DNA of 64,000 bases from Stegostoma tigrinum. Taxonomy: Eukaryota. Of the stretch, positions 2,094 to 60,867 are shown piece by piece. Under the pieces are notes generated by a model. That model had not been told where the DNA came from and searched no databases. It worked only from the letters and a program-made list of their open reading frames with translations. The DNA lies in NCBI RefSeq assembly GCF_030684315.1, contig NC_081371.1, positions 38,508,390 through 38,572,389 of the forward strand, in the 5' to 3' direction. Position 1 is the first letter of the stretch. Each line of letters opens with the position of its first letter. Both the position numbers and the translations under genes were made by a program.

Positions 2094-27955
<25,862 letters not shown>

Positions 27956-36000: not shown

Positions 36001-39000
36001 TGAAGCAGCAAGAGGTAGGATTAAAATCAACCAAATTTCACCTTTTTAGAGGACTGAAGTGAGCTCACTGTTCAACATTGCTTCAAAAAGAAAAAAAAAG
36101 CAAGTTGGGGGGGAAAATGCATACGTCATACAATGAAGTACTGATATTCTCCACATGGATTAAGTAACCTATCGAAACCATTTACCTGTTCCATTCTCGG
36201 GAAAAAAAAATTTCCTCTGCAGGGAGTCCAGAGCCGAGGAGAATAGCCTTAAAATTACAGCAGCTTATTCCTACAGTTTGAGAAGCTCAAGTTCGTCTGT
36301 TCAAGGATGATGTCAGCAAACACTTATATAAAAAAGGGGAGAGGAAATCTAAAACTTCAGGTTAGCCCAACTGAATATTTCTAAACTGTGATTACTCGGT
36401 TTTGATATCTAAAGATATTGAGGGTTACAGAATAAGAATACACAATTACAATTAAAATGAGCTGCAATCAAATTAAACAGTACCAAAAGAGACAAGGAGC
36501 TGAATGGCCTTTACCAATTCCTACGTACCACACTAGACAGCAACCTAGTAGATGCTGTTTTTGGCCCCGTCAATGTTTCTTTTAAAAGTGTATTTTACTC
36601 ATGTATCATGGCAATGTTGTAATTTCAATAAACACTAAAAACTTGGTTCTCCATGGGTAATCTTTATCTTTTCTATTACAAGTGAAAACATAAGTATGAT
36701 GAATTGTCACACACCTAGGAGCACTCCTTACCTAGTCGGATGGCCTGCATATCGCTTGCAGCAGAGTTCATTAATTAAGTCACAGTCTGCCCTGTACAAC
36801 AAGAAGTAGTAGTAGAAATCTTAATGCAGATTTAGGTATCAAGTGACCTTTGAACATATATTCAATATTACAACAATTCAATTCAAGGTAAAGGCGTATC
36901 AGTCAATCCTGCCTACAACTGCACACACAAACTAAAAGAGATTCTTGTGCAAAGGATCTCAAATTCCATCAAAATAAATGAGGTCACATTTTATAGTTAC
37001 TCTTCAACACGTATAATAAGTTGAAATGGATGAGAATTGTAATCGAAGCCACAGATTTCCTTCCACTGAACTGTTTCATCATTGCTTAAATGATGCCTCA
37101 GTCAAACTCCGGGGCAATGCCTTCCTGATAGCACTGTATAACAGCCCACATCGAATAGATTCAGACATCTAAGGAGGCAGTTCATTGCCACCTTCAAGGT
37201 ATTTTGGATGACAATAAATTCTGCCACTGTCAAATACCCATTAATAAATAAATGAATTAACACATTGGGCCTTGCTTACTACAAAAAAGTAGTAACTTTA
37301 AGATATTCCCATCATAACAGTGAAAAAAAGTAGTGAAAAGGTCTTTTTTTTCCTTGTAATCCCTATTTTAAAACAGAAACTTGAATTTGCACAAACAGAA
37401 AGAACTCTAAACGGTGACAAGCAGAAAACAGCTGCAGAGACCTCTTCTAAATGGTAAAGTGGAGGACAGAAGAGCGTTGACAACGGGTGGTTGGGTAACA
37501 GATTATGACTGCAGATGGGCTACAATGGATGCACGAGATTGGCACTGACAGACTGAGGTGGCATTCCCTGAGAGCAAAACTTCTGGGAGGAGTAGCTTAT
37601 AAACAGCATTTTAGGAAACCAAAACTATTTTTACAAAAGGACTTTATGATGAATCTTAGTGGACGTAAAGCATCGGTCCTTATAGCTAGCCTGCTTGTGG
37701 TTAATAATACCTTCAACAAATCTCAATTTATTGCACATTTATATCTCATACAATATTAGAATCATACAGTACACTGTCAAAAATATACTACCTCCTACAG
37801 TAGTCCTAATCCCCCACACTAGGAGTATAGCTTTGAATGCAAAGACACTTCAAGTGCTCATCCAAGTACTTTTCAAAAGGTTATGAGGTTTCTTGTCTCA
37901 ACTACCCTTGCACGCAGTGCATTCCAGACCACCACCATCCTCTGGATTTTTTTCAAAACCCTTTAAACCTTTCACTTTAAAATTACATCCCCTTGTTATT
38001 GACCCTCCAAGGGGAATAGCTACTTTCTATTCACCCTGTCCACGGCCCTCATCTTATACACCTCTATCATATCATTCATTAACTTTCTCTGCTCCTAAGA
38101 AAACAACCTGATCTTATCCTGCCTCTCTTTATAGCCAAAATACTCCATCCCAGGCAACATCCCGGTGAATCACTTTTGCACCTTCTTCAGTGCAATCACA
38201 TCCTTCTTAGAGCTGACTAGAACTGCGTACAATACTCCAGCAGTGGCCTAGCCAAAGTTCTGTACAGCTCCAATATGACCTCCCTGTTCCTATAATCTCT
38301 GCCATGACTGTTAGAGGCAAGTGTTATTTATGCCTAGCAGCATCTCAGGAGCACAAAAGCTGACGTTTTGGGCCTAGACCCTTCATCAGAGAGGGGGATG
38401 GGGAGAGGGAGCTGGAATAAATAGGGAGAGAGGGGGAGGCGGACCGAAGATGGAGAGTAAAGAAGATAGGTGGAGAGAGTATAGGTGGGGAGGTAGGGAA
38501 GGGATAGGTCAGTCCAGGGAAGACGGACAGATCAAGGAGGTGGGATGAGGTTAGTAGGTAGCTGGGGGTGCGGGTTGGTGTGGGAGGAAGGGATGGGTGA
38601 GAGGAAGAACCGGTTAGGGAGGCAGAGACAGGTTGGACTGGTTTTGGGATGCAGTGGGTGGGGGGGGAAGAGCAGGGCTGGTTGTGTGGTGCAGTGGGGG
38701 GAGGGGACGAACTAGGCTGGTTTAGGGATGCAGTAGGGGAAGGGGAGGTTTTGAAACTGGTGAAGTCCACATTGATACCATATGGCTGCAGGGTTCCCAG
38801 GCGGAATATGAGTTGCTGTTCCTGCAACCTTTGGGTGGCATCATTGTGGCAGTGCAGGAGGCCCATGATGGACATGTCATCTAGAGAATGGGAGGGGGAG
38901 TGGAAATGGTTTGCGACTGGGAGGTGCAGTTGTTTGTTGCGAACTCACCAGTTTCAAAATCTCCCCTTCCCCTACTGCATCCCTAAACCAGCCTAGTTCG

Positions 39001-42000
39001 TCCCCTCCCCCCACTGCACCACACAACCAGCCCAGCTCTTCCCCCCCACCCACTGCATCCCAAAACCAGTCCAACCTGTCTCTGCCTCCCTAACCGGTTC
39101 TTCCTCTCACCCATCCCTTCCTCCCACACCAAGCCGCACCCCCAGCTACCTACTAACCTCATCCCACCTCCTTGACCTGTCCGTCTTCCCTGGACTGACC
39201 TATCCCCTCCCTACCTATACTCTCTCCACCTATCTTCTTTACTCTCCATCTTCGGTCCGCCTCCCCCTCTCTCCCTATTTATTCCAGCTCCCTCTCCCCA
39301 TCCCCCTCTCTGATGAAGGGTCTAGGCCCGAAACGTCAGCTTTTGTGCTCCTGAGATGCTGCTTGGCCTGCTGTGTTCATCCAGCCTCACATTTTATTAT
39401 CTTGGAATTCTCCAGCATCTGCAGTTCCCATTATCTCTGTTATTTATGCCTTCTTAATTACTCTATTAACTCATACTATATCTTCAAGGATGCATGGACA
39501 TTCACCCCAAGATCCCTTTGCTCCTCTGACCTGCCATTCATGAAGTATTCCCTTGCCTCGTTCCTTCTTCTTAAGTGCATCACCTCACATTTATCAGAGT
39601 TAAATTCCATCTTACCAGTGATCTGCCTATCTAACCAATGTGTTTATATCCTGCCGTAACTTAACACCTTTCTCCTCACTGTCAGCTATCCAACCAATCT
39701 TTGTCATCCGCAAACTTACCGTGCTCTACCCCCCGACATTCTCATCTAAATCATTTATGAATATCACAACCAATTAAGGACCTAGGACTGATCCCTATGG
39801 TACGCTACTGCACACTGGACAGTAAATTACTGTCCTCCTTCCTGTTTTAGTTTTTGCAGAGATACCTAGGCGGAAACACTATGTATGAATTCATTATCAT
39901 CTTTCTTAAAAGTATAATTACCGTCTAAATGCAACAAAATGAGAGGTCACATCATCATCCAGTCCTGGGGCTTTTGAGTTTAATAAACATTCAATAGCTT
40001 CTTGAAGATCTGCCAATGACAAACAAAAAATGTAAACATCGTCATTGTATTTTAAAACATCATAACTTCTTTCTTATTGTTTGTCTAGTTTTGACATATT
40101 TAAATTTTAAAATGAGGGCAACCTCTGTGCTTTTTAAACAACTCAATGCAGTTCTTCTGTTCCCAATGACTAGGAAGTCCAGAACAGGGTCACAGTCTAA
40201 AAGGGTACAGGGTAGGCCATTTATGGCTGAGAGAAGGAGCAATTTCTTCACCTAGAGAGTAGTGAACCTGTGGAATTCTCTGCCACAGAAAGCAGTGAGG
40301 CTTAAAAAAAAAGAAAAAAATTGATTGCTTTCAAGGAGTTAAATATGGTTCTTAGGGTTAATCGGATTGAGGGTCTGGGGAGAAAACAGGAACGACTTCC
40401 TGGAGTTGGATGACCCATCATGATCACAATGAATAGCACAGCAAGCTTGAAGGGCCAAATGGCCTACTCCTGCTCCTATTTGCTATGTTTCACGCTGGTT
40501 CTCGGTACTCAATACAAATATGTATTCGAAACATAATATTATACACAAATCTAAATTCCCAATTATCACCTTTAGAAGTTCAACCCACATTATAATGACA
40601 AATTAAAGGCATTTAGTTGCATTCGTCCACCTTAACAAAACCTGGTGTATTATGGATCAATCCTAACTCCATTAGGATGCGGAAGCTGTGCAGTCATGAG
40701 CATAAAGATGGCACTGCAGGGAGGAAATGTGTAATTACAGGATGAGAAGTTTACAAAAAGGGAATTTACATAATAAATGTGGATATACGAACCTAGAATA
40801 TCCATCAAAGCACTACTTCCCAGCCTGGCCTCAATTTTGAGACCAACAGGAAAGGTTTAGGTAAATGGAGACATTACCAAATCATGCTGCTCTGTCCTCA
40901 GGCAGGTGCGAGTAGGAGCACACCCTTATTACTTCCATTCTGTCAACAGTAGGCATCCAAACTAAAAAATAGTTTTCACACCATTCAAATGCTTCCAAAC
41001 TGCCCATCCTTCAGGTAATGATGCCCATGACCCTCCTCCCAATCCATTCTCTGTGAGACATCCTCCTTACCTGACGTGAGCTCCTGCCACTTTTAATTCG
41101 GGATTGCTTCCAGTTTCGACAGCATCCGCTGTTCCAATTTGAATGGCCAACAACTCTCTGAAACAGGAACCTTGAGTGACAGGCCCACGTCTCACGATGG
41201 AATAGCAACATCTACGTCCTTTGATATTTGCATCACTGCACCATATTGTGTTAAATTGCTGTGAGCATCCATGACTGGCAGGATTGCATTCCCCACTAAT
41301 GCGTCCAGTGAGAGACCCCACCAAAAAATAAAATGCCTGTGTTTCTCTGAGGTAAACAATCCTTTCTGGATAGCAAGTCAAAATACTAGATCAATATGAA
41401 TCGGTTCCAGACTCACCAGTGGGGTTATATTTGGGGGGCAGAGAAACAAGAATGAATTTTTTATCAGATGTTGGAATGGTGACATCTGCAGACTTTGATA
41501 TGTGCATCACTGCGTCATATTGCAACTCGTTATATGTAGACTTCAATCCCATCTCAGCAATCCTAATAAATTAGAAGCCATGAAAAGTGAAGTGGTTATA
41601 TTTAAAAAATGCTAGTCGTAAAAGCTATTTCAAATGCCATTTGTCCGTCCCACCACCACTTTGTTCCCCACTGTTTGTCACCTTCTCTTCGGAAGCCAGT
41701 GACTTCCAGGTAACAGTTGCAATTAGTATCTTGCCTTTGAGGGGATGACTGACAAAAAGCTTTGAGTGAGCCGACAGAACTGAACATACAGTCAAACAGT
41801 CTGCTTCATTCGTGCTATTAAAAAGGCACCTCGTACAACCAAGAAGGTAAATGCAAGTTATGCTTGGACCAGTGTACTTAACTAGTTTTTACATTTCTTA
41901 AACATTTCTGGTAGACAGCCCCTTCTTTTATTTGCAACTCACGCAGAAACAAAAATGAGCACTAATCACAAAATCAAGAAAAAAAAAATGACCCCAACAA

Positions 42001-45000
42001 TGCAACAGATAGTAAAGCTGCAAGCCAAATCTTAAAAGTTGCTGATATAAAGATCAGGAGATCCAACTGCACATGGCACAAATCATTCAAAATTCATCAA
42101 ATTCAATGAAGGAGAATAATAAGGCAGTTGAGAACATTGCATGCATGTGAGCAGATAACTGCACTGCTGAAGGAAGCAAAGACGTACCCAGCAGCATTAT
42201 CTATGATCAGCTGGCTCTCTGCACGATGATTGTTTGGTAATTCAATGCTCCATTTAATTTGGAGCAAACCGGAATATACATCAGTCAACATGTTGCCCGG
42301 CTCAATACTTGGTAGCTGCTTAACATCACCTAGGGAAAATAAAAGGAGTAATTTTATATACCACAAAACGCACATTTAAAAAGACTGTCCAAATCCAGGG
42401 ATGACCAGTCAACGATGCACAGACCCGGTATCTCAAAAACACCAAAAACTTACAAAAGCAAAACACTGCAGATTCTAAAAATTTGAAGTAAAAACAGAAA
42501 ACGCAGATCTGGCAGCATCAAGAGACAGAAAAAGTAGCACCAAAGTCAATTGATTCTGATGAAAGGTAATCCAAAACATTACCTTTGCTTCACTTTCTGC
42601 AAATGCTGCCTGACCTACCAAGTATTTCTAGCTTTTTCTGATTGTGTCAAAACGTACTCTGCTCATTCTCACATCAACAATGGACTAGCTGGTCAAACAG
42701 ATTTATTGTTTCAGTTCTCGTGAACATTGCTTCAGGCTGATCTCCTGCAGCAACAATTTGGGATCAGTACAGGGCCTTGTGAGAGGGGCAGGGAGGGGTT
42801 TATTTGTAAGGACGATCTTGATTGGACAGATGAGATTAGATCTGGGCAGGTGTTTGAGAATTCAGAAAAAGGGGAAGTGGGGGAAGAGAGATTATCAGAG
42901 GACGGAGGCTCAGGGTTCACTGGAGAAATGGACTAAAATGTATTCTTTCATGGGATATGCAAAGTATACAGTGAAGCGTGGGTCAAAAGACAGAACAGCA
43001 AGTAAAAAAAGTGGAATGAAACTTGGGGATCTTACTTTGCCTGCACCCAGCATCGGGCGGGGGCAGGGGAAACAGTGTTACAGCATCACCATCAGCATAA
43101 CTACAGAGCCATAAGGAAAGGAAGAAATACTGAAGAATACAGAAGGAAATAAAATACAGAAGAAGGAGTAAAAGATCCAGGAGGAGACCAATGAAATTGT
43201 TGGAGAAAAGAAACATGTGGGATGGGTGGATTCAAAGGATTCAAAGAAATTCAAATTAAAATGGTACGTGATGTCCAAAATTCAGGATTCTGCCTTACTC
43301 AAAAGGTAATTTAATCAAATGGGCCACGTTGTATGCTCCATGAGGCTAGATACCTCTGATACAAGAAGCAACACATCTAGACACAGGAAATGTATTCACA
43401 CAGAAACCGATATTCAATTTAAAATCTACAATGTATTACTTTGAAAGGAATACAAATAGAATAAATCAATACATTTCTTTAAATAGGTTATTTCTGGAAA
43501 TTTCATCAATTCACTCTCACCTTCAAGTTGTTGGTTGAAGTGGTATTTATTGGCAGCATTGCAAATGCAATCAAGTTTACTTAACACCATTTATAATTGT
43601 ACTTTATAATCTGTTTCCTTCTGGGTGATATCAAGAGAAAACTGAAGAAAATGTAAGTAATTTTGCACTGCATATTAATGCATTCTAAGAATGAGTAGAA
43701 CTCTGATCAGATACTTACCAAGGATTATAAGTTTTTTGAGATTGGCACGCTCCATAAGCAACTTTAAAACAGTACTTAGGATACGCACGGAAACCAAACT
43801 CCCCTCATCGACAATCAGTACCTGGACATCAGAAAACATCCAATCAAGAGGTTTTCCTGATGCAGTTGATTTCTCTGCGGCCCAGAAACTCCACACCACC
43901 TATTTTTTTGAAACAAGAAACAATTCAATAGGTCTTTATTCAGGCAAGATATGAAAAACTTTAAAAGTTTATATTTCTCCCTAATCAATTTTCAAATCTT
44001 AATATTGCATTGAACCCTTATACTAATCAAAACACAAGTTAAAAAAAACCTCATCTCGTATTATTTCTAATATTAATATTGCAGTTCCACAGATTCTTTT
44101 TTAATCCTAAAGAGACTTAAAATTGGAATCTTATTTACGCCGTTTCCAAGAAGATTGGTGACAACTGCTTGCCATGCCCACATCTCGTGATGCAATAAAT
44201 AAATATCATCCTGTGGACGAATGACTAATTTACACAGCTCACTTCTCATGCATTTGTCAATGGGTCATTGGCCATAATTCATTATTTTGAAACGTGGCCA
44301 GTCTACCTCAGATCAGTGTAAGGTATCTTGAAAGTTTAATCAACAGATCAAGGTAGCATTTTCATCCTGCTACTCTGTTACGCAAGTGGCATTCCCTCTT
44401 CCAGGATACTGTAACTTCACAATAGCATTGATGATATTGCACAAATGAAAATGTTGCAGTTAAATTTCAGTGCTGGCGTATGCCATATATGTAAGTGATA
44501 CATCCCAATGACTGATGAATCAAATCAAAAAAGCTTATTCCTTCAGCTATTAGCAACAGTGTACTGACTATACCTAACCAGCTTCTGCTTGCAAAATTCA
44601 AAAACAGTGTGCAACCTTAGATGCAATTCTGCAATTGGACAAAGTTTGCCATTTAATCCTAAACATGCAATGGATTATGCTGATGATAAAAGCAAGGATT
44701 GTCAGTCACGGTCTCCTATGTTGTGTGAATGGAAGCAACATACAATAAAACACAGGGCCCTGTTCTTTGCAGGCAGAAATAACATACAGCCACCTGTTGT
44801 GCCTGGTTTAGCACAACTAAAAGCAAGTGGTATCAGAGATAATGGGAACTGCAGATGCTGGAGATTCCAAGATAATAAAATGTGAGGCTGGATGAACACA
44901 GCAGGCCAAGCAGCATCTCAGGAGCACAAAAGCTGACGTTTCGGGCCTAGACCCTTCATCAGAGACCCTCTCTGATGAAGGGTCTAGGCCCGAAACGTCA

Positions 45001-48000
45001 GCTTTTGTGCTCCTGAGATGCTGCTTGGCCTGCTGTGTTCATCCAGCCTCACATTTTATTATCTTAAAAGCAAGTGGTACTCGTTCTCTGGTTCATTTCT
45101 CAGAGTAATCCCTTGACCAAAGTCAACTGGTACTACTTAAAACATAATCATCAAAACTTAACAGTTAATTGACAGTCATCAGGCGATATCTCTAACAATT
45201 CACCTGCCAACCAATAAGCACTCTACTCAGTGTGAATATTAGTTTTCCCTTTTGACACTGCCTTATGAGTGCGAGATAAAAAGCTTTTGACAAAATTCAG
45301 TATTACTCAAGTTACGTACCAACAATTAAAGAAAAAAAATCACTTCCAATGATAATACAGAACATGAAATATCATAAGATTTAGAAAAGAAATCTCAAAA
45401 TTTTGGGCTTTTCTTAAATCGTACTGAGGAATATTGATATTCCACGATAACTCAAGTATTTTATCGCCCCACTACATCCCCCCCCCCCAACCCCGCCAAG
45501 GTCAGAGTCTGTAATTTAGATCTTAGTAGGCCATCTAAGAAGAAAAAGACTCCATATTAAACAAGATGTAACTATTTCCCAATTTTTTAAACAGAAAGAC
45601 TAACAGTGTAAACAAGAAAGTTCAGTGTCTTCAGTCTGTAGGGATTTCAAAAGCACACTGTATAGGGAAGAAGTGTGGAATCACTGACAGCTACAGTTGC
45701 TTTACTGCTTAACTGTATATGCCTGCAGTCCAAATAATTACCAGTTTCAAAAGGAGTAATAGGAGCAAACACTGACAGTATAGCTGTCACTAGTGGCATA
45801 AAAAACAGGGCCATTACCCTGACTTGGACATTTAACTACAGCTGGTAGTGGATCACACTAATATGATAGGGAGATAGGGAAAGTCAAAAAAAAATTGCAG
45901 CTGCAACATGATTTCAAGAGAAGTCCAAGCTTTTTAGAAACAGCTTCTAAAAAGAGTGCTACTGATAAAACAGACATCAGAAATAGTAATCAAAGCAAGA
46001 CAAAAGACAGTGTAAAAGAAATGTTCAAACTCTAAGCTTAATTGGTAAATCTGCTAGTAAAATCCAAAGAATAGCAGAAATTGAAGTTTTAAGGGGTATT
46101 TCTTACCACATGGGCCATGCGCCTCACTTCAACAATTCCAAATCAGACTAAGGCTGGAAACATAGCCGTAACACATCACTTGGCTATGAACGATTAGCTC
46201 AAAAAGTAACTTTACCAAAGTTATAATTTATTTTCAACTGTAAGCAGCCACTACAATTACTGTCAAGATTCTTATTCCCATATACAGTTGGATTCCAGCA
46301 TCCCTTGTTGGCAACTAGTGAAGGCTGTTTCCAAGTTACTCCAACCCTTTCAGGTACTCCCCTCATACAGATAATCAAAATGATCTTAATAACATACCGG
46401 CTAGTGTAGCGAAAATATATATTGTTTAACTTGGCTACTTTTGAAAGATTTTGGAGAAACTAACCTGTAATTCATTGAATGTTTACAAGTAACCTGGACT
46501 AACATATTCCTCAAACTTTCAGGCTCCAATATAGTTGCAAAACAAGAGTTTTAGGAATTCTTTTAAAAGTCACGCATTTACTTTATTCTAAAACATTAAA
46601 AGATTTGAATTATCCACAAAGTATCATTGAATGGCAATTACCTGGTGTAAAGTATACGCATTAAACCCAGTTTTTTTCTTTAAAAGAGATGCTGCCTTTC
46701 CAGTTGGTGCAGTGAACAGCACAGATACTTTTCTGACATTGACTTGCTCAAAGTTGCCACTGGGAGTTGCACCCAATGGGATATCCCAGCTTCCTGAAGC
46801 CCATTTGTCCTGCTCAAGAACTTGACATGCTTGCAATAGTTCCTCATTATCTGCACTCTCCATATTTTTAACTACTGTGCTAAAGATGCAGCTGACAAGT
46901 GTTGTCTTTCCACAGCCACCTTTACCACTGAGAACTGTAACAGGATTTTCACACATCATGGCAGCAGCTTTCAACTGATAAGAATCCAAGTTAACTTCTT
47001 TGATCCCTGTATCTTCAGGTAGTCTTTCCATCTGCTCTGCAGTGTTGGCTTTTGTCAAAGCCTCTGGCACTGAAATATGCCATGGAGGTTTATCCATAAG
47101 TTGCTTTATACAAGATGCAATGTCTTTCTCATAGTTATAAAAACACTTCAGATACACTCGCTCTTTTTCCACGATGATTATCTCATAGTTCTTTAAAAAT
47201 TGTAGTGATTCCCATGCACTTTGAACACTGAACTCAGATGGACGTAATGCAGTCAGTCCATTAACTTTAACATAGGTGTGTCCCTTACTCCAGCAAGTTT
47301 GTTTGAGCTTATCATAAATGACCAAAGCATGCCTTTGTAACTCTGGAATTGTCTTCAGGATATCAGCTTCCTCAAAGGCCAACAAGGATGCCTCACAACC
47401 AATCAGCTGTAGCTCCTTTGAGAGAATCTATAATCAGAAAGTTAAAAAAAACTTCAGAAATTATTCTTGAACTAACTATTTAATAGGAGAACACCTGCAA
47501 CTTTACAGGGTCTTTAATTGCAAATGCAATTACTACCTTGAGCTGGAATCTCTTCAGGGAGTGGAAGGTTTAAGATTGAAACTGATATCCAATGGTGTTG
47601 TTTTCCTTAAATGTTTTTTTTGCCAACATTTAATTTTGGGTTTGTCACACTCACGAGGCTACTACGGTCAATAGAAGTTAGAGAAATACAGATGAAAAAG
47701 GCTTCTGTTTAAATGTTCACAGCGAGAGAGAAGAAAAACAAAGATATACTTGGGATTTATTCATATTGACAACTGTGCACACAGACAAACTTACTTGACT
47801 GAATCCTAATTTCCACACTGCTGTCTCAATCATCTGTTCCAACTCCTGCAGAATATGGTATGAACGGGACTCTCTTCCATTTTCACTTTTTGGCATTAAA
47901 ATACTCAAGAAGTGCCGCGGCAGAAGCATGGGCAGGATCTCCGTCAAGTTTTGGAACATTAACGCATGCTGCACATATTGACCTTCAACTAAATTATTGC

Positions 48001-51000: not shown

Positions 51001-54000
51001 TTCAATATGAGAGGAAAAATCTATAATCCAAAGAGAGACACACAAGCTTACCTGAATTATTTATGGCTGCAATAATGCTTTTTATGAAGTTTTGGTCTCG
51101 TGTAGTATCCTTATCTGCAAGCCTTTGTAAAGTTTTCAACAGGTTTGAAAATTCAAGGTTACTATCCTCAGTCAAAGACTCAATAAAAATTTTTTTATGT
51201 TGCTCATGAACGTTACACGCTGTTAAGAACAGGCTGAAAATTTCCTTTCTTTGGTCTGCCAGATGACTCCTCAGACTGTAGGTTGGATACCAGCTTAAGT
51301 ACCATTTTTTCTGGATGCACTTGATCTTTGCTGTCACTTTCCACCATGGACCAGTAAAATGAAACCTTCCATGCACTTTGTAAGTTTCATTGGTGTCACA
51401 ATCTTTGATTAGAACTACAGAAAAGTGGATAAATACAGAGGTATGAAATCTGACTGCTATCTTTCAAAGTTTCAACACCATAGCATTGGAATACATCTAT
51501 CAAATTCTCCCTACATCTCTTCCAACTAATTATGTTTTCAAACATGTCCACCTTCTCACATGAAATCATTGAGGAAATCAGAATTGTTTTAAAACTGTGA
51601 AATTACTATTCTGTAAGGATTTATTATATCGCATTTTCAACAACTTCTCAACATTGGCTTTGATTTGATCAAAAGATTTTTATTCCCTAAACAGATTTCA
51701 CTGTTGTTCCTGAAAATGTTGGAGAATTTCATGTATATTTGCGCTGAAACAAACACTTAATCTGGGTGTTAATCAAGCACATATTCCGAAAGAATGCATA
51801 ATTGTGAGTTTGATTGCGCCCAAGGATGAACCGCCAAGCCATTTCCTCATTCCAGAGTATAGCTTAAGGATACTGCCTGCCATCTCATCTTTCCAAAACA
51901 AAAATAACTTTCACATTACACCCAAGTTAATTGCCTTGATTGATTTACAGCATCCGCAGTTTTTTCAGTTTTTATTTTGTAAGTAGTCAATATCAAAAAC
52001 TTCAAATCTTGAATGATACCCAAATTATATCTCCTAATGTATCAAGTGTTGATGTAATCAAAGTAACTGTACACTTTCTACATGGATGAAGAAAGAGTGG
52101 TCAATTGATCTTCTTTATTAATAGACACAATCTCAACTGGTGAAACAAGCAGAAAATATCCCTTACCAAGTTTCAAATGCTCATTATCTTTTAATGTTTT
52201 CTCTGCTCTAATTATCTCGAATATACTCAGTATTGAACCTGCAATTGAGTTTATCACTTGAGACTTTGTCACTTTTGCAGTTACTGATTATCAAGTTATT
52301 AACCACAAACCCGAATATTTCCAGCATTTCTGGCTAAGTGATATGATTACAATTTGAGATAATAAAATGTGAGGGTGGATGAACACAGCAGGCCCAGCAG
52401 CATCTCAGGAGCACAAAAGCTGACATTTCAGGCCGAGACCCTTCATCCTCTCTGAAGAAGGGTCTAGGCCCGAAACAACAAAATGTGAGGCTGGATGAAC
52501 ACAGCAGGCCAAGCAGCATCTCAGGAGCACAAAAGCTGACGTTTCGGGCCTAGACCCTTCATTAGAGAGGGGAATGGGGTGAGGGTTCTGGAATAAATAG
52601 GGAGAGAGGGGGAGGCGGACCGAAGATGGAGAAAAGAAGATAGGTGGAGAGAGTATAGGTTGGGAGGTAGGGAGGGGATAGGTTAGTCCAGGGAAGACGG
52701 ACAGGTCAAGGAGGTGGGATGAGGTTAGTAGGTAGATGGGGGTGCGGCTTGGGGTGGGAGGAAGGGATGGGTGAGAGGAAGAACAGGTTAGGGAGGTGGA
52801 GACAGGTTGCACTGGTTTTGGGATGCAGTGGGTGGAGGGGAAGAGCAGGGCTGGTTGTGTGGTGCAGTGGGGGGAGGGGACGAACTGGGCTGGTTTAGGG
52901 ATGCAGTAGGGGAAGGGGAGATTTTGAAACTGGTGAAGTCCACATTGATACCATATGGCTGCAGAGTTCCCAGGCGGAATATGAGTTGCTGTTCCTGCAA
53001 CCTTTGGGTGGCATCATTGTGGCACTGCAGGAGGCCCATGATGGACATGTCATCTAAGGAATGGGAGGGGGAGTGGAAATAGTTTGCGACTGGGAGGTGC
53101 AGTTGTTTATTGCGAACTGAGCGGAGGTGTTCTGCAAAGCGGTCTCCAAGCCTCCGCTTGGTTTCCCCAATGTAGAGGAAGCCACACCGGGTACAGTGGA
53201 TGCAGTATACCACATTGGCAGATGTGCAGGTGAACCTCTGCTTAATGTGGAATGTCATCTTGGGGCCTGGGATAGGGGTGAGGGGGGAGGTGTGGGGGCA
53301 AGTGTAGCATTTCCTGCGGTTGCAGGGGAAGGTGCCGGGTGTGGTGGGGTTGGAGGGCAGTGTGGAGCGAACAAGGGAGTCACGGAGAGAGTGGTCTCTC
53401 CGGAAAGCAGACAGGGGAGGGGATGGAAAAATGTCTTGGGTGGTGGGGTCGGATTGTAAATGGCGGAAGTGTCGGAGGATGATGCGTTGTATCCGGAGGT
53501 TGGTGGGGTGGTGTGTGAGAACGAGGGGGTTCCTCTTTGGGCGGTTGTGAGGGATGTGTTGCGGGAAATACGGGAGACGCAGTCGACGGCGTTCTCGATC
53601 ACTGTGGGGGGAAAGTTGCGATCTTTGAAGAACTTGGACATCTGGGATGTGCGGGAGTGGAATGTCTTGTCGTGGGAGCAGATGCGGGGGAGGCGGAGGA
53701 ATTGGGAATAGGGGATGGAATTTTTGCAGGAGGGCAGGTGGGAGGAGGTGTATTCTAGGTAGCTGTGGGAGTCGGTGGGCTTGAAATGGACATCAGTTAC
53801 AAGCTGGTTGCCTGAGATGGAGACTGAGAGGTCCAGGAAGGTGAGGGATGTGCTGGAGATGGCCCAGGTGAACTGAAGGTTGGGGTGGAAGGTGTTGGTG
53901 AAGTGGATGTTCATCCAGCCTCACATTTTGTTGTCTTGGATTCTCCAGCATCTGCAGTTCCCATTATCTCTAGGCCCGAAACGTCAGCTTTTGTGCTCCT

Positions 54001-55093
54001 GAGACACTGCTGGGCCTGCTGTGTTCATCCAGCCTCACATTTTATCATCTTGGATTCTCCAGCATCTGCAGTTCCCATTATCACTGATTACAATTTGATG
54101 TAGTTTGACAGTAGACTAGATTTTGCTGCTGTACAGCCAGTAAACACCATCAATTTTCACCACATTACTGCTGTTAAAATGACAGTAACTACTCTAATGC
54201 CTTCAGTTAACCCAATGTTTTGGTCAGACAGCCATCCCATATTTCTTCACAAAGTACCTCAGAATGCGAATGAGGCAAAAAATCTTTGAGACGATAAAAA
54301 AAACATCTTTGCTAATAGGATTCTGGTAAAAGAATTGAAATTTTGAACCTTTTTGAGTGAAGTGGAACTTAAATTTTCAATATATCAAACCCAAATCCAC
54401 TAAAAAGCCTCAATGTCCCTGAAAGTCTAATTCTATACCTTTGAAAGGAATACTTTAAAAGTTACGATATTTCGGCTAGTACCTTAATTACATACTTATG
54501 TTACTTTTAATTAAAATCTAAGGACAATACTTATTTTCTGGTTCACTATCTTGAGAATACTTCAACAGCCCAATTGCCACAATCCGTATCTGATGTGGAT
54601 TTTTCCCATCGCAGGTGTTAATTTAAATACGATTCAGAGTCAAACGGATTTCCGGGTGCCCAGGAGTATAGATCAAGTGAGTAAGCAACCAATCACGCTG
54701 ATTAGTGTTGATAAAATTGTTATCATGAGTGTCGCAAAATCTATATCAACGTGACGAGGTCCAAATCCAACTTCGCCACTGACCACAAAATCTGGGTCAA
54801 CGTGTACTTACAATGAATGTGCCACAAGTTAAAAGACAGACAATGCTGGGAATAGTCAACAAACAGCAAAGAAGCGTGTCTTTTTACTTACCAGACCGCC
54901 GCGCCACAGAAGAGGCTCTGACGGAACTTGCACCGTCTGACATGCTCATCATGTCCTCGAAATCCAGGAACTGCAGTTCATCATCTTCTTCCTCCTCGTC
55001 GTCCGAATCTTCCTTCGCTACATTGTTCTTTAAAGGCAAAATGTATCCGTTCACAACAAAGGGCTTCCCCGAGGCCGCGCGCTGCCTAGACAT
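29974..55093 (-). CDS. HELB: HELB DNA helicase B (SF1B RecD2-like 5'-3' helicase), complete 13-exon CDS, 3291 nt / 1096 aa. complement(join(29974..30090,32081..32779,33529..33675,35304..35469,36732..36791,39922..40009,41417..41562,42188..42329,43719..43899,46642..47427,47795..47988,51052..51414,54892..55093))
   Basis: Motifs [10 protein letters not shown] (Walker A), [16 protein letters not shown] (Walker B), [53 protein letters not shown]. All 12 introns are GT-AG with consistent phases. Confidence 0.96.
30146..30430. mobile_element. Fold-back mini-element of the Poseidon family (same terminal repeat as the 5536 element)
   Basis: Inverted arms about 30144..30261 and 30271..30392, 38-bp tail, TSD aatttaaatacct (30133..30145 and 30431..30443). 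Confidence 0.9.
30620..30920 (-). mobile_element. Degenerate HE1-like V-SINE
   Basis: Similar to the copy at 34350..34664. Confidence 0.7.
32081..32779 (-). CDS. HELB: HELB exon 12 (motifs V/VI and S/T-P-rich tail)
   Basis: [36 protein letters not shown]...KSPQKCSK|gtaat. Confidence 0.94.
33529..33675 (-). CDS. HELB: HELB exon 11
   Basis: [15 protein letters not shown]|gtaag. Confidence 0.92.
34350..34664 (-). mobile_element. HE1-like V-SINE, well preserved
   Basis: ggcacggtggctcagtggttagc...gggttcgattccc A/B boxes, V-domain and CR1-like tail. Confidence 0.88.
35304..35469 (-). CDS. HELB: HELB exon 10
   Basis: [14 protein letters not shown]...[13 protein letters not shown]. Confidence 0.93.
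36732..36791 (-). CDS. HELB: HELB exon 9 (60 nt)
   Basis: [19 protein letters not shown]; compare recalled human QDCDLINDCCCKHYTGHLT. Confidence 0.92.
37757..39820 (-). mobile_element. CR1-type LINE fragment interrupted by the PLE at 38336
   Basis: LINE sequence continues on both sides of the PLE TSD. Confidence 0.7.
38336..39437. mobile_element. Young Neptune-type PLE: truncated endonuclease 3' end plus inverted 3'-end copy
   Basis: [21 protein letters not shown]; TSD tgttatttatgcct (38322..38335 and 39438..39451); intact + strand hammerhead core at 39310..39337. Confidence 0.92.
39922..40009 (-). CDS. HELB: HELB exon 8
   Basis: [29 protein letters not shown](R); compare recalled human TSQFIAFRR. 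Confidence 0.9.
40120..40492 (+). mobile_element. CR1-type LINE 3' tail
   Basis: gtgaacctgtggaattctctgccacagaaagc...gggccaaatggcctactcctgctcct. Confidence 0.75.
41417..41562 (-). CDS. HELB: HELB exon 7 (not in the ORF track)
   Basis: tattag|[22 protein letters not shown]...[17 protein letters not shown]|gtgag; phases fit. Confidence 0.85.
42188..42329 (-). CDS. HELB: HELB exon 6
   Basis: [13 protein letters not shown]...[14 protein letters not shown]. Confidence 0.94.
43719..43899 (-). CDS. HELB: HELB exon 5 (Walker B)
   Basis: [12 protein letters not shown]...KLIIL(G). Confidence 0.93.
44833..45064. mobile_element. Perfect fold-back PLE mini-element with two opposed hammerhead ribozyme cores
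   Basis: 97-bp perfect inverted arms (44869..44965 and 44969..45065), 3-nt loop, 36-bp tail, TSD taaaagcaagtggta (44818..44832 and 45065..45079). Confidence 0.95.
44972..44999 (+). ncRNA. Minimal hammerhead ribozyme core (mirror copy at 44935..44962 on -)
   Basis: CUGAUGA-a-GGGUCUAGGCCC-GAAAC-GUC; stem I is weak (about 2 bp). Confidence 0.7.
46642..47427 (-). CDS. HELB: HELB exon 4 (Walker A, HELB-specific RPA-binding region, motif Ia)
   Basis: [16 protein letters not shown]...[10 protein letters not shown]...[11 protein letters not shown]...YTLHQ|gtaat. Confidence 0.95.
47795..47988 (-). CDS. HELB: HELB exon 3
   Basis: LPMLLPRHF...WKLGFSQ|gtaag. Confidence 0.92.
48860..49430 (-). mobile_element. 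Rex1/Babar-like LINE 3' fragment
   Basis: The minus strand encodes [13 protein letters not shown], resembling the Rex1/Babar RT C-terminus as I recall it. Confidence 0.6.
51052..51414 (-). CDS. HELB: HELB exon 2
   Basis: [27 protein letters not shown]...; ctgtag| and |gtaag. Confidence 0.92.
52358..54084 (-). mobile_element. Young Neptune-type PLE, 5'-truncated (RT C-terminus, Cys linker, GIY-YIG) with duplicated terminal repeats at both ends, in HELB intron 1
   Basis: [34 protein letters not shown]; [21 protein letters not shown]; TSD tgattacaatttga (52344..52357 and 54085..54098). Confidence 0.93.
54892..55093 (-). CDS. HELB: HELB exon 1 (ATG at 55093)
   Basis: [22 protein letters not shown]..acidic run..FLDFEDM; donor G|gtaagt; CpG-rich context. 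Confidence 0.85.
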
Positions 55094-55111
55094 TGCGTCG
55101 ATTCCGGAACC

Positions 55112-55497
55112 CTGGCCCAGTTCAGCCCAGCAGAGCCCAATTCAGCGCGCCTACAGCTCAGCTCAGCTCAACCCAGCCCAGCCCAATTCAGCGCGCCTAC
55201 AGCTCACCCCTGCCCAGCCCAATTCAGCGCGCCTACAGCTCAGCTCAGCCCAGCAGAGCCCAATTCAGCACGCTTACAGTTCAGCTCAGCTCCGCCCAGC
55301 CCAGCCCAATTCAGCGCGCCTACACCTCAGCCCAGCTGAGCCCAATTCAGCGCGCCTACAGCTCAGCTCAGCCCAGCCCAGCAGAGCCCAATTCAGCGCG
55401 CCTACAGCTCAGCTCAACCCAGCCCAGCCCAATTCAGCACGCTTACAGCTCAGCCCAGCCCAATTCAGCACGCTTACAGCTCAGCCCAGCCCAGCCT
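55112..55497. repeat. Minisatellite: 9 copies of GCCCAATTCAGC(G/A)CGC(C/T)TACA separated by variable CAGCC/CAGCT pentamer runs
   Basis: Direct reading; cores at about 55136, 55182, 55218, 55259, 55305, 55341, 55387, 55428 and 55459. Confidence 0.92.
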
Positions 55498-55499
55498 AA

Positions 55500-57610
55500 A
55501 TTGCTGGAGAAAGTCATCCATGGGAAAAATGCAGAGTTAACATTTCCACTCTGAGCACACATCATCAGAATTTAAAAGTGGAAAAGTGCGAATAACTGGA
55601 TAAATATGTCGAAGTCAACATGGGGTTAGGAGGAAAAGGTCAGCAGATATATGAAGACCAATCTCTCAGAAAAGAGAGAGAGAGATATGAAATGGTTAGG
55701 TAAACAAGGAGAAAATGGATAGCAGGCCAGTACAAAGGAAAAGCTGTATATTTGATAGTGAAGAGTATGATAATGGAGATAGCAAGAACTTTAGATGCTG
55801 GAGTCAGAGATAACATGGTGTGGAGTTGGAGGAAGACTGCAGGCCAGGCAACATTAGAGGTGCAGGAAAGTTGACATTTTAGTCAGGACCCTTCAGAAAT
55901 AGGTAAGGGGAAGGGAGCTGGGAAATAACTGGAGGGAGGAGAGGTGGGATGGGGCTGGGGGAATAACTGAGTGCAGGTAGAGAGTGGTGGGGATTGGTCA
56001 GTGGGATTGGTAGGTGGGAAAGAGTTGGACAGGTTGTGTCAGGCCAAGGAGGCTGGGATGAGAGGGAGGGTTGGATATGGGATGATGCCAGATGTGGGGA
56101 GATTTTAAAATTGGTGAATTCCATATTTAGGCCCTTGGACTGTAGGCTCCTGAGGCAGAATATGAGGTGCTGCTCTTCCAGTTTGTGTGTGATGTCATTA
56201 TGGTACTGGACAAAGCCCAGGACGTGTCACCTAGGGAATGGGAAGGGGACTTAAAATGGTGTTGTCGATTATCATGTACAGAAGGCAGATGCTCAATGAA
56301 ACAGTCCCCTGGTCTGTGCTTGGTCTCACAGATATAGAGCAGGCCACATCAGGAGCAACGGGTACAGTAGACCAGGTTGGAGGATGTACAGGTGAACTTC
56401 TGTTGGATATGAAAGGTTAACTTTGGGCCCTGAACAGTGATGAGGGGGGAAGGTGTAGGGGTAGGTGTAGCACTTCCTGTGGTTGCATTGAAAGGTGCCG
56501 GGTGTGTGGAGCAAATAAGGGAGTCACGGAGTCTTAGGAGTGAGAAGGGAAATATCTCATCGGGTTGGATTATAGTTGGCAGAAGTGGCGGGGAATGATG
56601 CGCTGTGTGTGGAGGCTGGTGGGGTCGTATCAGGACTCGCAGGAGTCTTTAATTTTCTTGGGGAGGGGTTGAGGGCAGAAGTGCAGGAAATGCAAGAGAT
56701 TTGGCTGAGAGCATTTTTGACATCTGGAGGGGGATGTTGCAATCCTTGAAATGGGAGGACATCTGGGATGTCTGCGAGTTGAATGCTCCATCTTGGGTGC
56801 AAATCAGCTGGAGGTGAAGGAATTAGGGGGAAGGAATCACATTCTTGCAGGAGGGTGGGTGAGAATAGACGTGGTCCAGGTAGCTATGGGAGTCGGTGGG
56901 TTTGAAATAGATGTCAGAGGAAGAGATATGAAAGGGGTAGGTAAATCAGGAGATTATGGATAGCAGGCCGAATGTAACAAATGTAATGTAATAATGGGCA
57001 GAGGAGTATCTGGAAATGGGTGACTGTGCTAAAAGCAACCGATATCATAACAAGACCAGGCGTGGGGCGGATAAAAAATATGGAAGGCTGGAATCTGACT
57101 CAAAAGTCCTAAAAGCTCCAGTGTCCCCAAACAAAAAATTGCTCTTTGAGCTTGAACTGAGGCTCAGTGAAACACTTCAGTATAGCTGCAACAGAAATGT
57201 TGGTGTGGAAACAAAGTGATGTGTTGAAGTGGCAGGAAACTGGAAATTCCTGGCCATTTTTGGGACAGACATTTTGCATTCAGCACAGCCAACCCATTTT
57301 CTCTTCTGACTTCTTCATTATCGCTTATTCAGCTTGACTTCTGATCTGGCCTGCTATCCTCAACATCCTTGTTGCATACCCCTTTCATATCCCTCCCTCT
57401 ATGGGCTCCTTCTCCACCTATCCACTCAGCTCCCATCACCCACTTTGGATTCAACATGAATACTGTTTTTTCCTTGCTACTAACAGTTCTGATGAAGTGT
57501 CACTGGACTCGACACATCAACTTTGCTTTCTTCTCACAGATGCTTCCGGACATGCTGCGTTTCTCCAGCAATCTGTGTTTACGTTTCAGATCTCCAGCTA
57601 GTCTTTGTTT
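55500..57610 (-). mobile_element. Older nested PLE remnants (Neptune-like body about 55770..56915 between older opposed terminal repeats)
   Basis: PGTFQCNHRKCYT homologous to the young family; decayed CTGATGA cores near 55562 (-) and 57489 (+). Confidence 0.7.
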
Positions 57611-59150: not shown

Positions 59151-59427
59151 AGTTAACACTCTCATGGTCTATCCTAGCCCAGTCCAATTGAATGACGTTA
59201 CAATCTTGCTTAGCTCAGCTCCCTCCGTGCCTACAATAAAACAAAGATGCTGGAAACTGGAAACAAAAACAGAAATTGCTGGAAAAACTCAGCAGGCCCG
59301 GCAGAGAGAAAGCAAAATTAGCATTTCAAGTCCAGTGTCCATGAAGAAAGGTCACTGGACTCAAAATATTCACTCTGTTTTCTCTCCAAAGATGCTGCCA
59401 CCTGCTGACTTTATCCATCAATTTCAA

Positions 59428-60766
59428 GATAACAAAATGTGAGGCTGGATGAACACAGCAGGCCAAGCAGCATCTCAGGAGCACAAAAGCTGACGTTTCG
59501 GGCCTAGACCCTTCATCAGAGAGGGGGATGGGGGGAGGGAACTGGAATAAATAGGGAGAGAGGGGGAGGCGGACCGAAGATGGAGAGTAAAGAAGATAGG
59601 TGGAGAGGGTGTAGGTGGGGAGATAGGGAGGGGATAGGTCAGTCCAGGGAAGACGGACAGGTCAAGGAGGTGGGATGAGGTTAGTAGGTAGCTGGGGGTG
59701 CGGCTTGGGGTGGGAGGAAGGGATGGGTGAGAGGAAGAACCGGTTAGGGAGGCAGAGACAGGTTGGACTGGTTTTGGGATGCAGTGGGTGGGGGGGGGAA
59801 GAGCTGGGCTGGTTGTGTGGTGCAGTGGGGGGAGGGGATGAACTGGGCTGGTTTAGGGATGCAGTGGGGGAAGGGGAGATTTTGAAACTGGTGAAGTCCA
59901 CATTGATACCATATGGCTGCAGGGTTCCCAGGCGGAATATGAGTTGCTGTTCCTGCAACCTTCGGGTGGCATCATTGTGGCAGTGCAGGAGGCCCATGAT
60001 GGACATGTCGTCAAGAGAATGGGAGGGGGAGTGGAAATGGTTTGCGACTGGGAGGTGCAGTTGTTTGTTGCGAACTGAGCGGAGGTGTTCTGCAAAGCGG
60101 TCCCCAAGCCTCCGCTTGGTTTCCCCAATGTAGAGGAAGCCGCACCGGGTACAGTGGATGCAGTATACCACATTGGCAGATGTGCAGGTGAACCTCTGCT
60201 TAATGTGGAATGTCATCTTGGGGCCTGGGATGGGGGTGAGGGAGGAGGTGTGGGGACAAGTGTAGCATTTCCTGCGGTTGCAGGGGAAGGTGCCGGGTGT
60301 GGTGGGGTTGGAGGGCAGTGTGGAGCGAACAAGGGAGTCACGGAGAGAGTGGTCTCTCCGGAAAGCAGACAGGGGAGGGGATGGAAAAATGTCTTGGGTG
60401 GTGGGGTCGGATTGTAAATGGCGGAAGTGTCGGAGGATAATGCGTTGTATCCGGAGGTTGGTAGGGTGGTGTGTGAGAACGAGGGGGATCCTCTTGGGGC
60501 GGTTGTGGCGGGGGCGGGGTGTGAGGGATGTGTCGCGGGAGATGCGGGAGACGCGGTCAAGGGCGTTCTCAATCACCGTGGGGGGGAAAGTTGCGGTCCT
60601 TAAAGAACTTGGACATCTGGGATGTGCGGGAGTGGAATGTCTTATCGTGGGAGCAGATGCGGCGGACGCGGAGGAATTGGGAATAGGGGATGGAATTTTT
60701 GCAGGAGGGTGGGTGGGAGGAGGTGTATTCTAGGTAGCTGTGGGAGTCGGTGGGCTTGAAATGGAC
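59428..60766 (-). mobile_element. Young Neptune-type PLE, 5'-truncated, nested in an older fold-back element (about 59240..60790)
   Basis: ORF 59662..60576 with CNRRKCYTC linker and GIY-YIG; intact hammerhead core at 59492..59519; TSD atccatcaatttcaa (59413..59427 and 60767..60781). Confidence 0.93.
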
Positions 60767-60867
60767 ATCCATCAATTTCAATTTTTGTTTTCTCTCAGCC
60801 CAGCATAACTGAGCACCCTCACAGACCAGCCCAATTCCCTCAAGCTGGCACAGCACAACTCAGCACC

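What the first reader, a model, noticed from the sequence alone, without database searches (positions are those of the whole stretch)
44818..45079. 232-bp fold-back mini-retroelement: a perfect 97-bp hairpin of two opposed hammerhead ribozymes, with tail and 15-bp TSD
Seen: arms 44869..44965 and 44969..45065 are exact reverse complements around a CCC loop. Each arm holds an intact CTGATGA-AGGGTCTAGGCCC-GAAACGTC core. A 36-bp extension sits on one side only, and taaaagcaagtggta is duplicated on the flanks. There is no coding sequence. Known: PLE pseudo-LTRs carry minimal hammerheads and often integrate inverted with a tail of about 35 bp. Inference: this is either an extreme truncation product or a self-standing non-autonomous ribozyme-hairpin element mobilised by the Neptune RT/endonuclease. 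The same size and architecture recur at 3391, 5284 and 30146 from different families, which suggests a stereotyped class. Transcribed in HELB intron 4, it would form long perfect dsRNA (a possible ADAR/Dicer substrate).
Basis: partly seen in the sequence, partly recalled or inferred. Interest (0 to 1): 0.8.

Follow-up and report, generated by a model that had tools for sequence, protein, structure and literature searches.

The report
Twin-copied start of Penelope retrotransposon RNA
This short DNA hairpin in a shark gene's intron is a dead-end insertion made when a Penelope-type jumping gene copied the first ~100-130 letters of its own RNA twice and joined the copies head to head, and thousands of such hairpins seem to record where that RNA begins and perhaps where its ribozyme cuts.

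Summary
It is not a self-standing element. Its junction recurs 154 times, but 7,031 loci have this form, with 33 different junctions in 50 loci. The tail lies on either side of the identical junction (14 vs 16), and both ends show priming microhomology. In 17 of 32 asymmetric loci each arm holds template the other lacks, so two independent cDNAs are indicated. Best reading: twin target-priming by a Neptune-type Penelope-like element at its two initiation sites, with both cDNAs running off a fixed RNA 5' end. That end lies 30-31 nt below a TATA-like box in both a Neptune-type and a Poseidon-type family, so it is probably the transcription start (inferred; no raw RNA reads). A second symmetric class (about 860 loci) centres on the predicted hammerhead cut: either in vivo cleavage or an RT pause. 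In the hairpin only one ribozyme per strand is sense and it is fully paired, so it should be inactive. The architecture is published, and this scan noted such hairpins before in two other genomes. I did not find the end-mapping in print.

The parts
44818..44832 (.). Left target-site duplication (15 bp); its last 3 bases match the parental template (priming microhomology of the long cDNA)
44833..44868 (-). 36-bp tail: template between the two RT initiation sites of the parent's 5' UTR
   Evidence: tail equated with the stretch between two RT start sites in PMC11167929
44869..44965 (-). Long arm (with tail): cDNA 1, template copied up to 3 nt above the hammerhead core
44935..44962 (-). Minimal type I hammerhead motif (core, palindromic stems II and III, 2-bp stem I); predicted cut between 44935 and 44934; sense in HELB pre-mRNA but fully paired
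44966..44968 (+). CCC loop: matches parental sequence 4-6 nt above the core on the right arm; no overlap and no extra base at the join
44969..45064 (+). Short arm (no tail): cDNA 2, primed from the other target strand at the upstream initiation site
44972..44999 (+). Second hammerhead motif copy; predicted cut after 44999
45065..45079 (.). Right target-site duplication (15 bp); first base shared with the arm (1-nt microhomology)
43900..46635 (-). Host: intron 4 of HELB (DNA helicase B), between exon 4 (47427-46636) and exon 5 (43899-43717); exon edges approximate, from tblastn
59421..60769 (-). 5'-truncated, tail-less parental Neptune-type copy in the window (RT thumb end, CX4CxxC linker, GIY-YIG, TATA-like box 34 nt above the core)
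38332..39439 (.). Longer head-to-head insertion of the same family with a 14-bp TSD: same architecture, arms ending inside the ORF

Best explanation
A dead-end product of twin target-primed reverse transcription by a Neptune-type Penelope-like element (PLE). The endonuclease makes a staggered cut, about 14-15 nt apart (shown by TSDs). Both 3' ends prime cDNA with 1-5 nt of microhomology (shown statistically), one at the downstream and one at the upstream initiation site of the 5' UTR, which gives one arm with and one without the ~36-nt tail (shown). The two arms are independent cDNAs from RNA (shown by reciprocal asymmetry). When the protein uses the initiation sites near the 5' end of a message, both cDNAs run off the RNA's 5' end after ~100-135 nt (inferred). 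That end is most likely the transcription start, 30 nt below a TATA-like box (inferred, about 0.7). Host end-joining fuses the two cDNA ends head to head, bluntly or through small microhomologies or insertions (inferred from junction sequences). The product has no promoter box, no ORF start, and a fully paired hammerhead, so it should neither move again nor self-cleave (inferred). A smaller symmetric class ends at the predicted hammerhead cut and may come from self-cleaved templates (about 0.45).
For: 7,031 loci with the two cores 0-30 nt apart vs 363 at 31-60 nt, beside 82,003 read-through parental junctions. In the first 50 loci there are 33 distinct junctions; 34 of 100 arms end 4 nt above the core and none beyond 6. 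90 of 98 fetched loci have one long and one short arm; 79 of 98 have TSDs of 10-17 bp, mode 14. Priming microhomology: mean 1.69 nt at long ends (51 ends) and 1.89 at short ends (44 ends) vs 0.43-0.44 in 2,000 shuffles, none reaching the observed value. The identical junction has the tail left in 14 and right in 16 of 31 loci (1 without), across several subfamily variants also seen in parental copies. In asymmetric loci the tail-less arm reaches further in 17 of 32 and the tail arm in 15. TATA-like box at -34 with constant spacing in 111 of 115 read-through copies, modal end -4. Poseidon-type box at -47; 24 of 50 loci have both arms ending at -16, and none uses the 6-bp palindrome just upstream. 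The ORF (with DKG motif) starts about 167 nt below the core in natural copies. In vitro, a PLE protein cleaves and extends both strands, has two internal start sites and is predicted to be a dimer (PMC11167929). TSSs in pLTRs are known (PMC8557442).
Against: No direct RNA 5'-end data. The TATA and initiator calls are motif readings on two to three families. The one mapped animal PLE promoter is TATA-less and internal (PMC2377424). In vitro, PAc initiated without homology to the target, unlike the microhomology seen here. This locus ends at -3 and -6, not at the modal -4, and 30146 ends at about -50. Samples come from the first loci listed (mostly contig C1), not random draws. My TSD caller maximises TSD length, which may inflate microhomology somewhat.
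Confidence: 0.68

Rival explanations
1. Same twin priming, but the hot spot is an RT stall or a preferred joining sequence on a longer RNA (C-run or G-rich cDNA, the hammerhead hairpin base, AGCT-centred end joining), not a physical RNA end.
For: The Neptune-type end is the first C of a C-run. The modal junctions of three classes all centre on AGCT. The single arm folds a stem whose base lies 2-3 nt below the predicted cut, so an RT pause there gives the same junction as cleavage.
Against: The Poseidon-type hot spot has no C-run, lies 12 nt further from the core, and keeps the same 30-31 nt distance to its AT-rich box. The Neptune-type modal join has no native GC overlap. Older families centre on AAATTT. 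Other 4-nt palindromes are used far less: GGCC 6 of 50, ACGT 2 of 50, CTAG 0 of 50, downstream GGCC 2 of 50.
Confidence: 0.18
2. A non-autonomous hairpin family transcribed and retrotransposed as a unit by the Neptune proteins.
For: 154 genome copies of the exact junction with different TSDs. In the Poseidon-type family one junction makes up 24 of 50 loci. Non-autonomous PLE derivatives exist (retrozymes, 10.64898/2026.07.22.740005; Chlamys).
Against: The junction is about 2% of 7,031. Tail side is 14:16 and subfamily variants are mixed. Both ends sit at initiation sites with priming microhomology instead of one fixed and one truncated end. The unit lacks the promoter box and the ORF-proximal sequence that the PAc protein needed. 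No A-to-G excess in 140 hairpin arms (9 A>G) relative to 25 parental arms (3 A>G) (weak test).
Confidence: 0.06
3. One cDNA folds back and copies itself (snap-back), or an antisense template self-primes, as proposed for palindromic PLE junctions in PMC3846280.
For: Many asymmetric junctions use a 2-6 nt overlap compatible with fold-back. The idea is in print.
Against: A copy-back cannot add the tail to a tail-less first strand, nor extra template to the second arm. Yet the tail-less arm reaches further in 17 of 32 loci. Zero-loop perfect palindromes are the modal junction (6 of 50; 24 of 50).
Confidence: 0.06

Closest known systems
Canonical EN+ PLE insertion: inverted 5'-truncated copy plus 30-40 bp tail at one end (PMC8557442, passages read; PMC3846280, passages read)
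   Same: Head-to-head pLTR copies, one-sided ~36-bp tail, TSD, palindrome at the junction; the parent has the CX2-5CxxC linker, CCHH/GIY-YIG and DKG motifs
   Different: Both arms are reduced to 5'-UTR/pLTR sequence and end at a sharp common site in thousands of loci. Those papers call the mechanism unresolved or propose antisense self-priming.
Poseidon PAc in vitro TPRT (PMC11167929; parts 1-2 of 4 read: main text and start of methods; supplements not read)
   Same: Two internal RT start sites bounding the tail, both target strands cut and extended, predicted dimer
   Different: Here the family is Neptune-type, initiation lies in the 5' UTR before the ORF, and 1-5 nt target microhomology is seen. 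That paper found no RNA reads ending at the hammerhead cut and, in the part read, gives no model for inverted copies.
Minimal type I hammerheads of metazoan PLEs (PMC4209133; parts 1-2 of 4 read)
   Same: Conserved core, extra unpaired base before stem II, palindromic stem III, very short stem I. The paper notes dual motifs on opposite strands 100-700 bp apart.
   Different: Here the opposed cores are 9 nt apart. The paper reports monomers inactive and states that in vivo evidence is absent.
Non-LTR (animal) retrozymes (10.64898/2026.07.22.740005; part 1 of 5 and a term search read)
   Same: Non-coding, hammerhead-bearing, PLE-derived
   Different: Retrozymes are head-to-tail tandems with two or more sense hammerheads. 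This is head-to-head, with one sense motif per strand.
L1 twin priming (recalled, not from a call)
   Same: Both target 3' ends prime cDNA and the cDNAs are joined
   Different: L1 gives an inversion of different RNA parts. Here the same part is copied twice from two fixed start sites.

Membership tests
EN+ Penelope-like element insertion | Derives from an element with RT and C-terminal GIY-YIG with CCHH motif | tested here: met
   Arms are continuous with copies encoding GIY-YIG (Pfam PF01541, E 0.001, below the curated cut-off), CCHH residues read, DKG motif in L139
EN+ Penelope-like element insertion | Inverted truncated copy plus 30-40 bp tail at one end, with TSD | tested here: met
   This locus, and 90 of 98 loci with one long and one short arm; TSD in 79 of 98
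Neptune clade | CX2-5CxxC linker between RT and EN | tested here: met
   CX4CxxC in window ORFs 59662-60729 and 52788-53792; definition. Nematis shares this linker.
Neptune clade | RT phylogeny groups with Neptune references | not tested
   No reference set was on hand
Non-LTR retrozyme | Head-to-tail tandem with at least two sense hammerheads | tested here: not met
   Head-to-head, one sense motif per strand
Non-autonomous element amplified as a unit | Copies share one junction, one polarity and one lineage | tested here: not met
   33 junctions in 50 loci; tail side 14:16 and mixed subfamilies for the identical junction
Minimal type I hammerhead | Conserved core with stems II and III able to form a dimer | tested here: met
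   Motif at 44972-44999; two sense copies pair through the palindromic stem II and stem III sequences in a cofold. No Rfam hit.
Minimal type I hammerhead | Active fold accessible in the transcript of this locus | tested here: not met
   Full hairpin -208 kcal/mol; even alone, the alternative fold (-11.4) beats the monomer hammerhead fold (-3.6). Computed folds only.
Minimal type I hammerhead | Self-cleavage of the parental RNA | tested here: inconclusive
   28 of 50 listed loci (of 1,536) centre on the predicted cut, but an RT pause gives the same junction

The most novel reading that the evidence does not exclude
The roughly ten thousand mini-hairpins of this genome are a fossil 5'-end map of Penelope-like RNAs. 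The main class marks a TATA-directed transcription start in two PLE clades. A second class (about 860 loci; 95% range 634-1,075) marks templates cut by the element's own minimal hammerhead in the germ line, for which the papers read report no in vivo evidence. Together they give a twin-priming model for inverted copies, the tail and the need for tandem copies.
Probability: 0.35. Interest if true: 0.7.

Novelty: new variant of a known kind. Interest (0 to 1): 0.45.

Why it matters
As a locus it is ordinary junk: one of thousands of dead-end insertions. As a class it bears on two open questions named in the PLE literature: how the inverted-copy-plus-tail structure forms, and whether minimal hammerheads cut in vivo. 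The reciprocal asymmetry argues for two cDNAs per event. The end hot spot predicts the exact promoter and start site, and explains why a lone copy yields only stubs while tandems yield full copies. The cut-site class offers a cheap genomic test of ribozyme activity. It also warns that an identical junction in many loci does not prove a non-autonomous family, which matters for repeat curation.

Tried and rejected
Rfam at gathering score: 0 hits in the window. RNA evidence: no RNA holder listed and only contigs were offered, so expression, 5' ends, editing and small RNAs are untested. Laying four contig sets on the locus was swamped by the repeat, and no empty-site joint was among the 15 joints shown (1,653 not shown). 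PDB search for the host exon: no match. Splice acceptor as the cause of the hot spot: rejected, no AG before the modal end. Post-insertion slippage between palindromic repeats as the cause of the cut-site class: disfavoured, since the nearer CTAG and ACGT palindromes are hardly used. Cap-templated extra C: seven of twelve arms ending at -4 with an insertion begin with a non-native C (counted by eye). This is suggestive only and not claimed. The TATA spacing of the older CTGAAGA families could not be checked, as no read-through copy was among the fetched loci. The -5 end in the T-rich subfamily matches a box at -35 in only 2 copies, against 2 at -34: inconclusive. No related shark genome is held by the tools, so orthologous empty sites could not be read.
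Full report
Observation. The described anatomy is exact: TSD 44818-44832, tail 44833-44868, arm 44869-44965, CCC, arm 44969-45065, TSD 45065-45079. The fold is far beyond chance (z -29.8). The host is HELB on the minus strand and the insert lies in intron 4. Exon 4 is 95% identical to a protein named whale shark DNA helicase B, so the genome is that of a related shark.

Parent. The arms are part of an abundant PLE family: 82,003 exact read-through junctions. Window copies carry a CX4CxxC linker and GIY-YIG domain, which fits the Neptune clade as defined in PMC8557442; no tree was built. 1,653 places continue past the tail into the body. In such natural copies the order is: TATA-like TATTTAT 34 nt above the hammerhead core, core, short arm end (about +92), long arm end (about +130), ATG at about +167, then an ORF with the DKG motif. 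The hairpin is therefore two copies of the parent's 5' UTR, lacking both the box and the ORF start.

Is it a family? With any 0-30 nt between the cores there are 7,031 loci. The first 50 hold 33 distinct junctions, this one three times. Among 31 loci with the identical, asymmetric junction the tail is left in 14, right in 16 and absent in 1, and the arms carry several subfamily variants also found in parental copies. A single master cannot give this pattern.

Two primed ends. Of 98 fetched loci (31 with the exact junction, 47 others from the first 50 after dropping duplicates, 20 of the 28 listed cut-site loci), 90 have one long and one short arm and 79 have a TSD of 10-17 bp. For loci with a TSD of 12 bp or more, 128 ends could be placed and 95 had no untemplated bases. 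These match the template by 1.69 nt (51 long ends) and 1.89 nt (44 short ends) on average, against 0.43-0.44 in shuffles. This locus shows 3 and 1 nt. PMC11167929 reports two internal start sites bounding the tail and extension of both strands, but initiation without homology; that last point differs from what is seen here.

Two cDNAs, not copy-back. I fetched 40 of the 50 loci listed, choosing the asymmetric ones. In the 32 with arms differing by 5 nt or more and a clear tail side, the tail-less arm reaches further upstream in 17 and the tail arm in 15. In the 17, each arm holds template the other lacks, so neither is a copy of the other. This argues against the self-priming reading in PMC3846280, at least for these loci.

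A fixed template end. Loci fall from 7,031 (gap 0-30) to 363 (gap 31-60), and many of the 50 listed among the latter are compound joins. Arm ends peak 4 nt above the core (34 of 100; none beyond 6). About 14 of the 21 ends scored at 1 belong to T-rich variants that my reference mis-scores. The box-to-core spacing is constant in 111 of 115 read-through copies over several spacer variants, putting the peak 30 nt below the box. In the Poseidon-type family (3' end at 5519-6254, no linker) the box GATAAATA lies at -47. Of 359 loci with gap 14-44, 24 of the 50 listed have both arms ending at -16 and 7 more have one extra base. None centres on the 6-bp palindrome just upstream (counted by eye). So the end tracks the box (30 and 31 nt), not the ribozyme (-4 and -16). 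The 30-31 nt TATA-to-start distance, TATTTAT as a working TATA variant and the pyrimidine-initiator look of the ends are recalled knowledge. Older CTGAAGA families give 1,671 more such loci, ending at about -4 to -5. Against: the D. virilis promoter is TATA-less, and no raw RNA reads were available.

A second class at the predicted cut. Of 1,536 loci in the window around the cut, 28 of the 50 listed are perfect palindromes centred on the AGCT that starts at the first base after the cut. Other 4-nt palindromes: GGCC 6 and ACGT 2 of the same 50, CTAG 0 of 50 (of 5,634), downstream GGCC 2 of 50 (of 1,166). The binomial p for 28 vs 6 is 0.0002; the estimate is 860 loci (634-1,075). Of 20 fetched, 19 have long plus short arms and 17 a TSD of 10 bp or more, so they are true insertions. 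This fits templates cut by the hammerhead. But the lone arm folds a stem ending 2-3 nt below the cut, and the palindrome hides which base is the end, so an RT pause or a preference for AGCT joins is not excluded. Anchors differ in CpG content, so counts across searches are only roughly comparable.

Function of this copy. A transcript of either strand has one sense hammerhead locked in a 96-97 bp duplex. Minimal hammerheads were inactive as monomers in vitro (PMC4209133). I expect no cleavage and no onward mobility. It would form perfect dsRNA in HELB pre-mRNA; editing and dicing are untested. Arm substitutions show no A-to-G excess (weak test).

Age. The arms are identical. In one search, one contig in each of two runs from different samples aligns from 45065 rightward with 68 and 15 further letters that do not continue into the arm. 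These lengths equal what an empty allele would give. The letters were not shown, so polymorphism is a hint only.

Literature. Seen: PMC11167929 (parts 1-2 of 4), PMC4209133 (parts 1-2 of 4), 10.64898/2026.07.22.740005 (part 1 of 5 and a term search; no mention of sharks or hairpins), and PMC3846280, PMC8557442 and PMC2377424 (passages). The inverted copy plus tail, opposite-strand hammerhead pairs and pLTR start sites are all published. Eight searches returned no paper, by title and abstract start, describing start-site or cut-site end peaks or a two-cDNA test. Subscription papers, Repbase entries and all supplements were not seen, and the supplement of PMC11167929 (genomic end coverage) may bear on this. 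Two earlier notes of this scan, on other genomes, called such hairpins ordinary PLE ends. I agree on identity; the end-mapping is my addition.

Verdict. Real, not a new element class; a stereotyped by-product whose junction statistics make the PLE insertion mechanism testable. Interest 0.45.

Noticed in passing
G000:C1:49657934-49658691 (L160-L162) and arrays at C1:104860927, 110519796, 135852192, 140329165: Head-to-tail arrays of a unit holding promoter box, hammerhead, tail and ORF start (period 362 in L161; 329, 293, 336 and 166 in others by coordinates). They look like non-LTR retrozyme arrays of the same family.
   Followed up: partly
window 22912-23700 and 38332-39439: Longer head-to-head insertions of the same Neptune-type family, each with a 14-bp TSD.
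   Followed up: partly
window 5284-5511 and 5519-6254: An older Neptune-type hairpin (11-bp TSD) sits directly beside the 3' end of a Poseidon-type copy.
   Followed up: partly
window 30146-30430: Poseidon-type hairpin with a 13-bp TSD whose centre is at the TATA-like box, about 50 nt above the core, not at the -16 hot spot. It lies just inside HELB's last intron, near the last coding exon (30090-29977).
   Followed up: partly
listing, e.g. G000:C1:13361121 and 25203381: Compound junctions with a third short piece running from the start-site position to about 10 nt past the cut, suggesting repeated template jumps on short RNAs.
   Followed up: no
window 44750-44817 and 45065-45400: Contig coordinates in two runs fit an empty allele of this insertion; the letters were not shown.
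   Followed up: partly
window 55090-55554: Low-complexity tandem repeat just upstream of HELB exon 1.
   Followed up: no
L004, L007: Exact-junction loci with an added short or tandem piece inside one arm.
   Followed up: no
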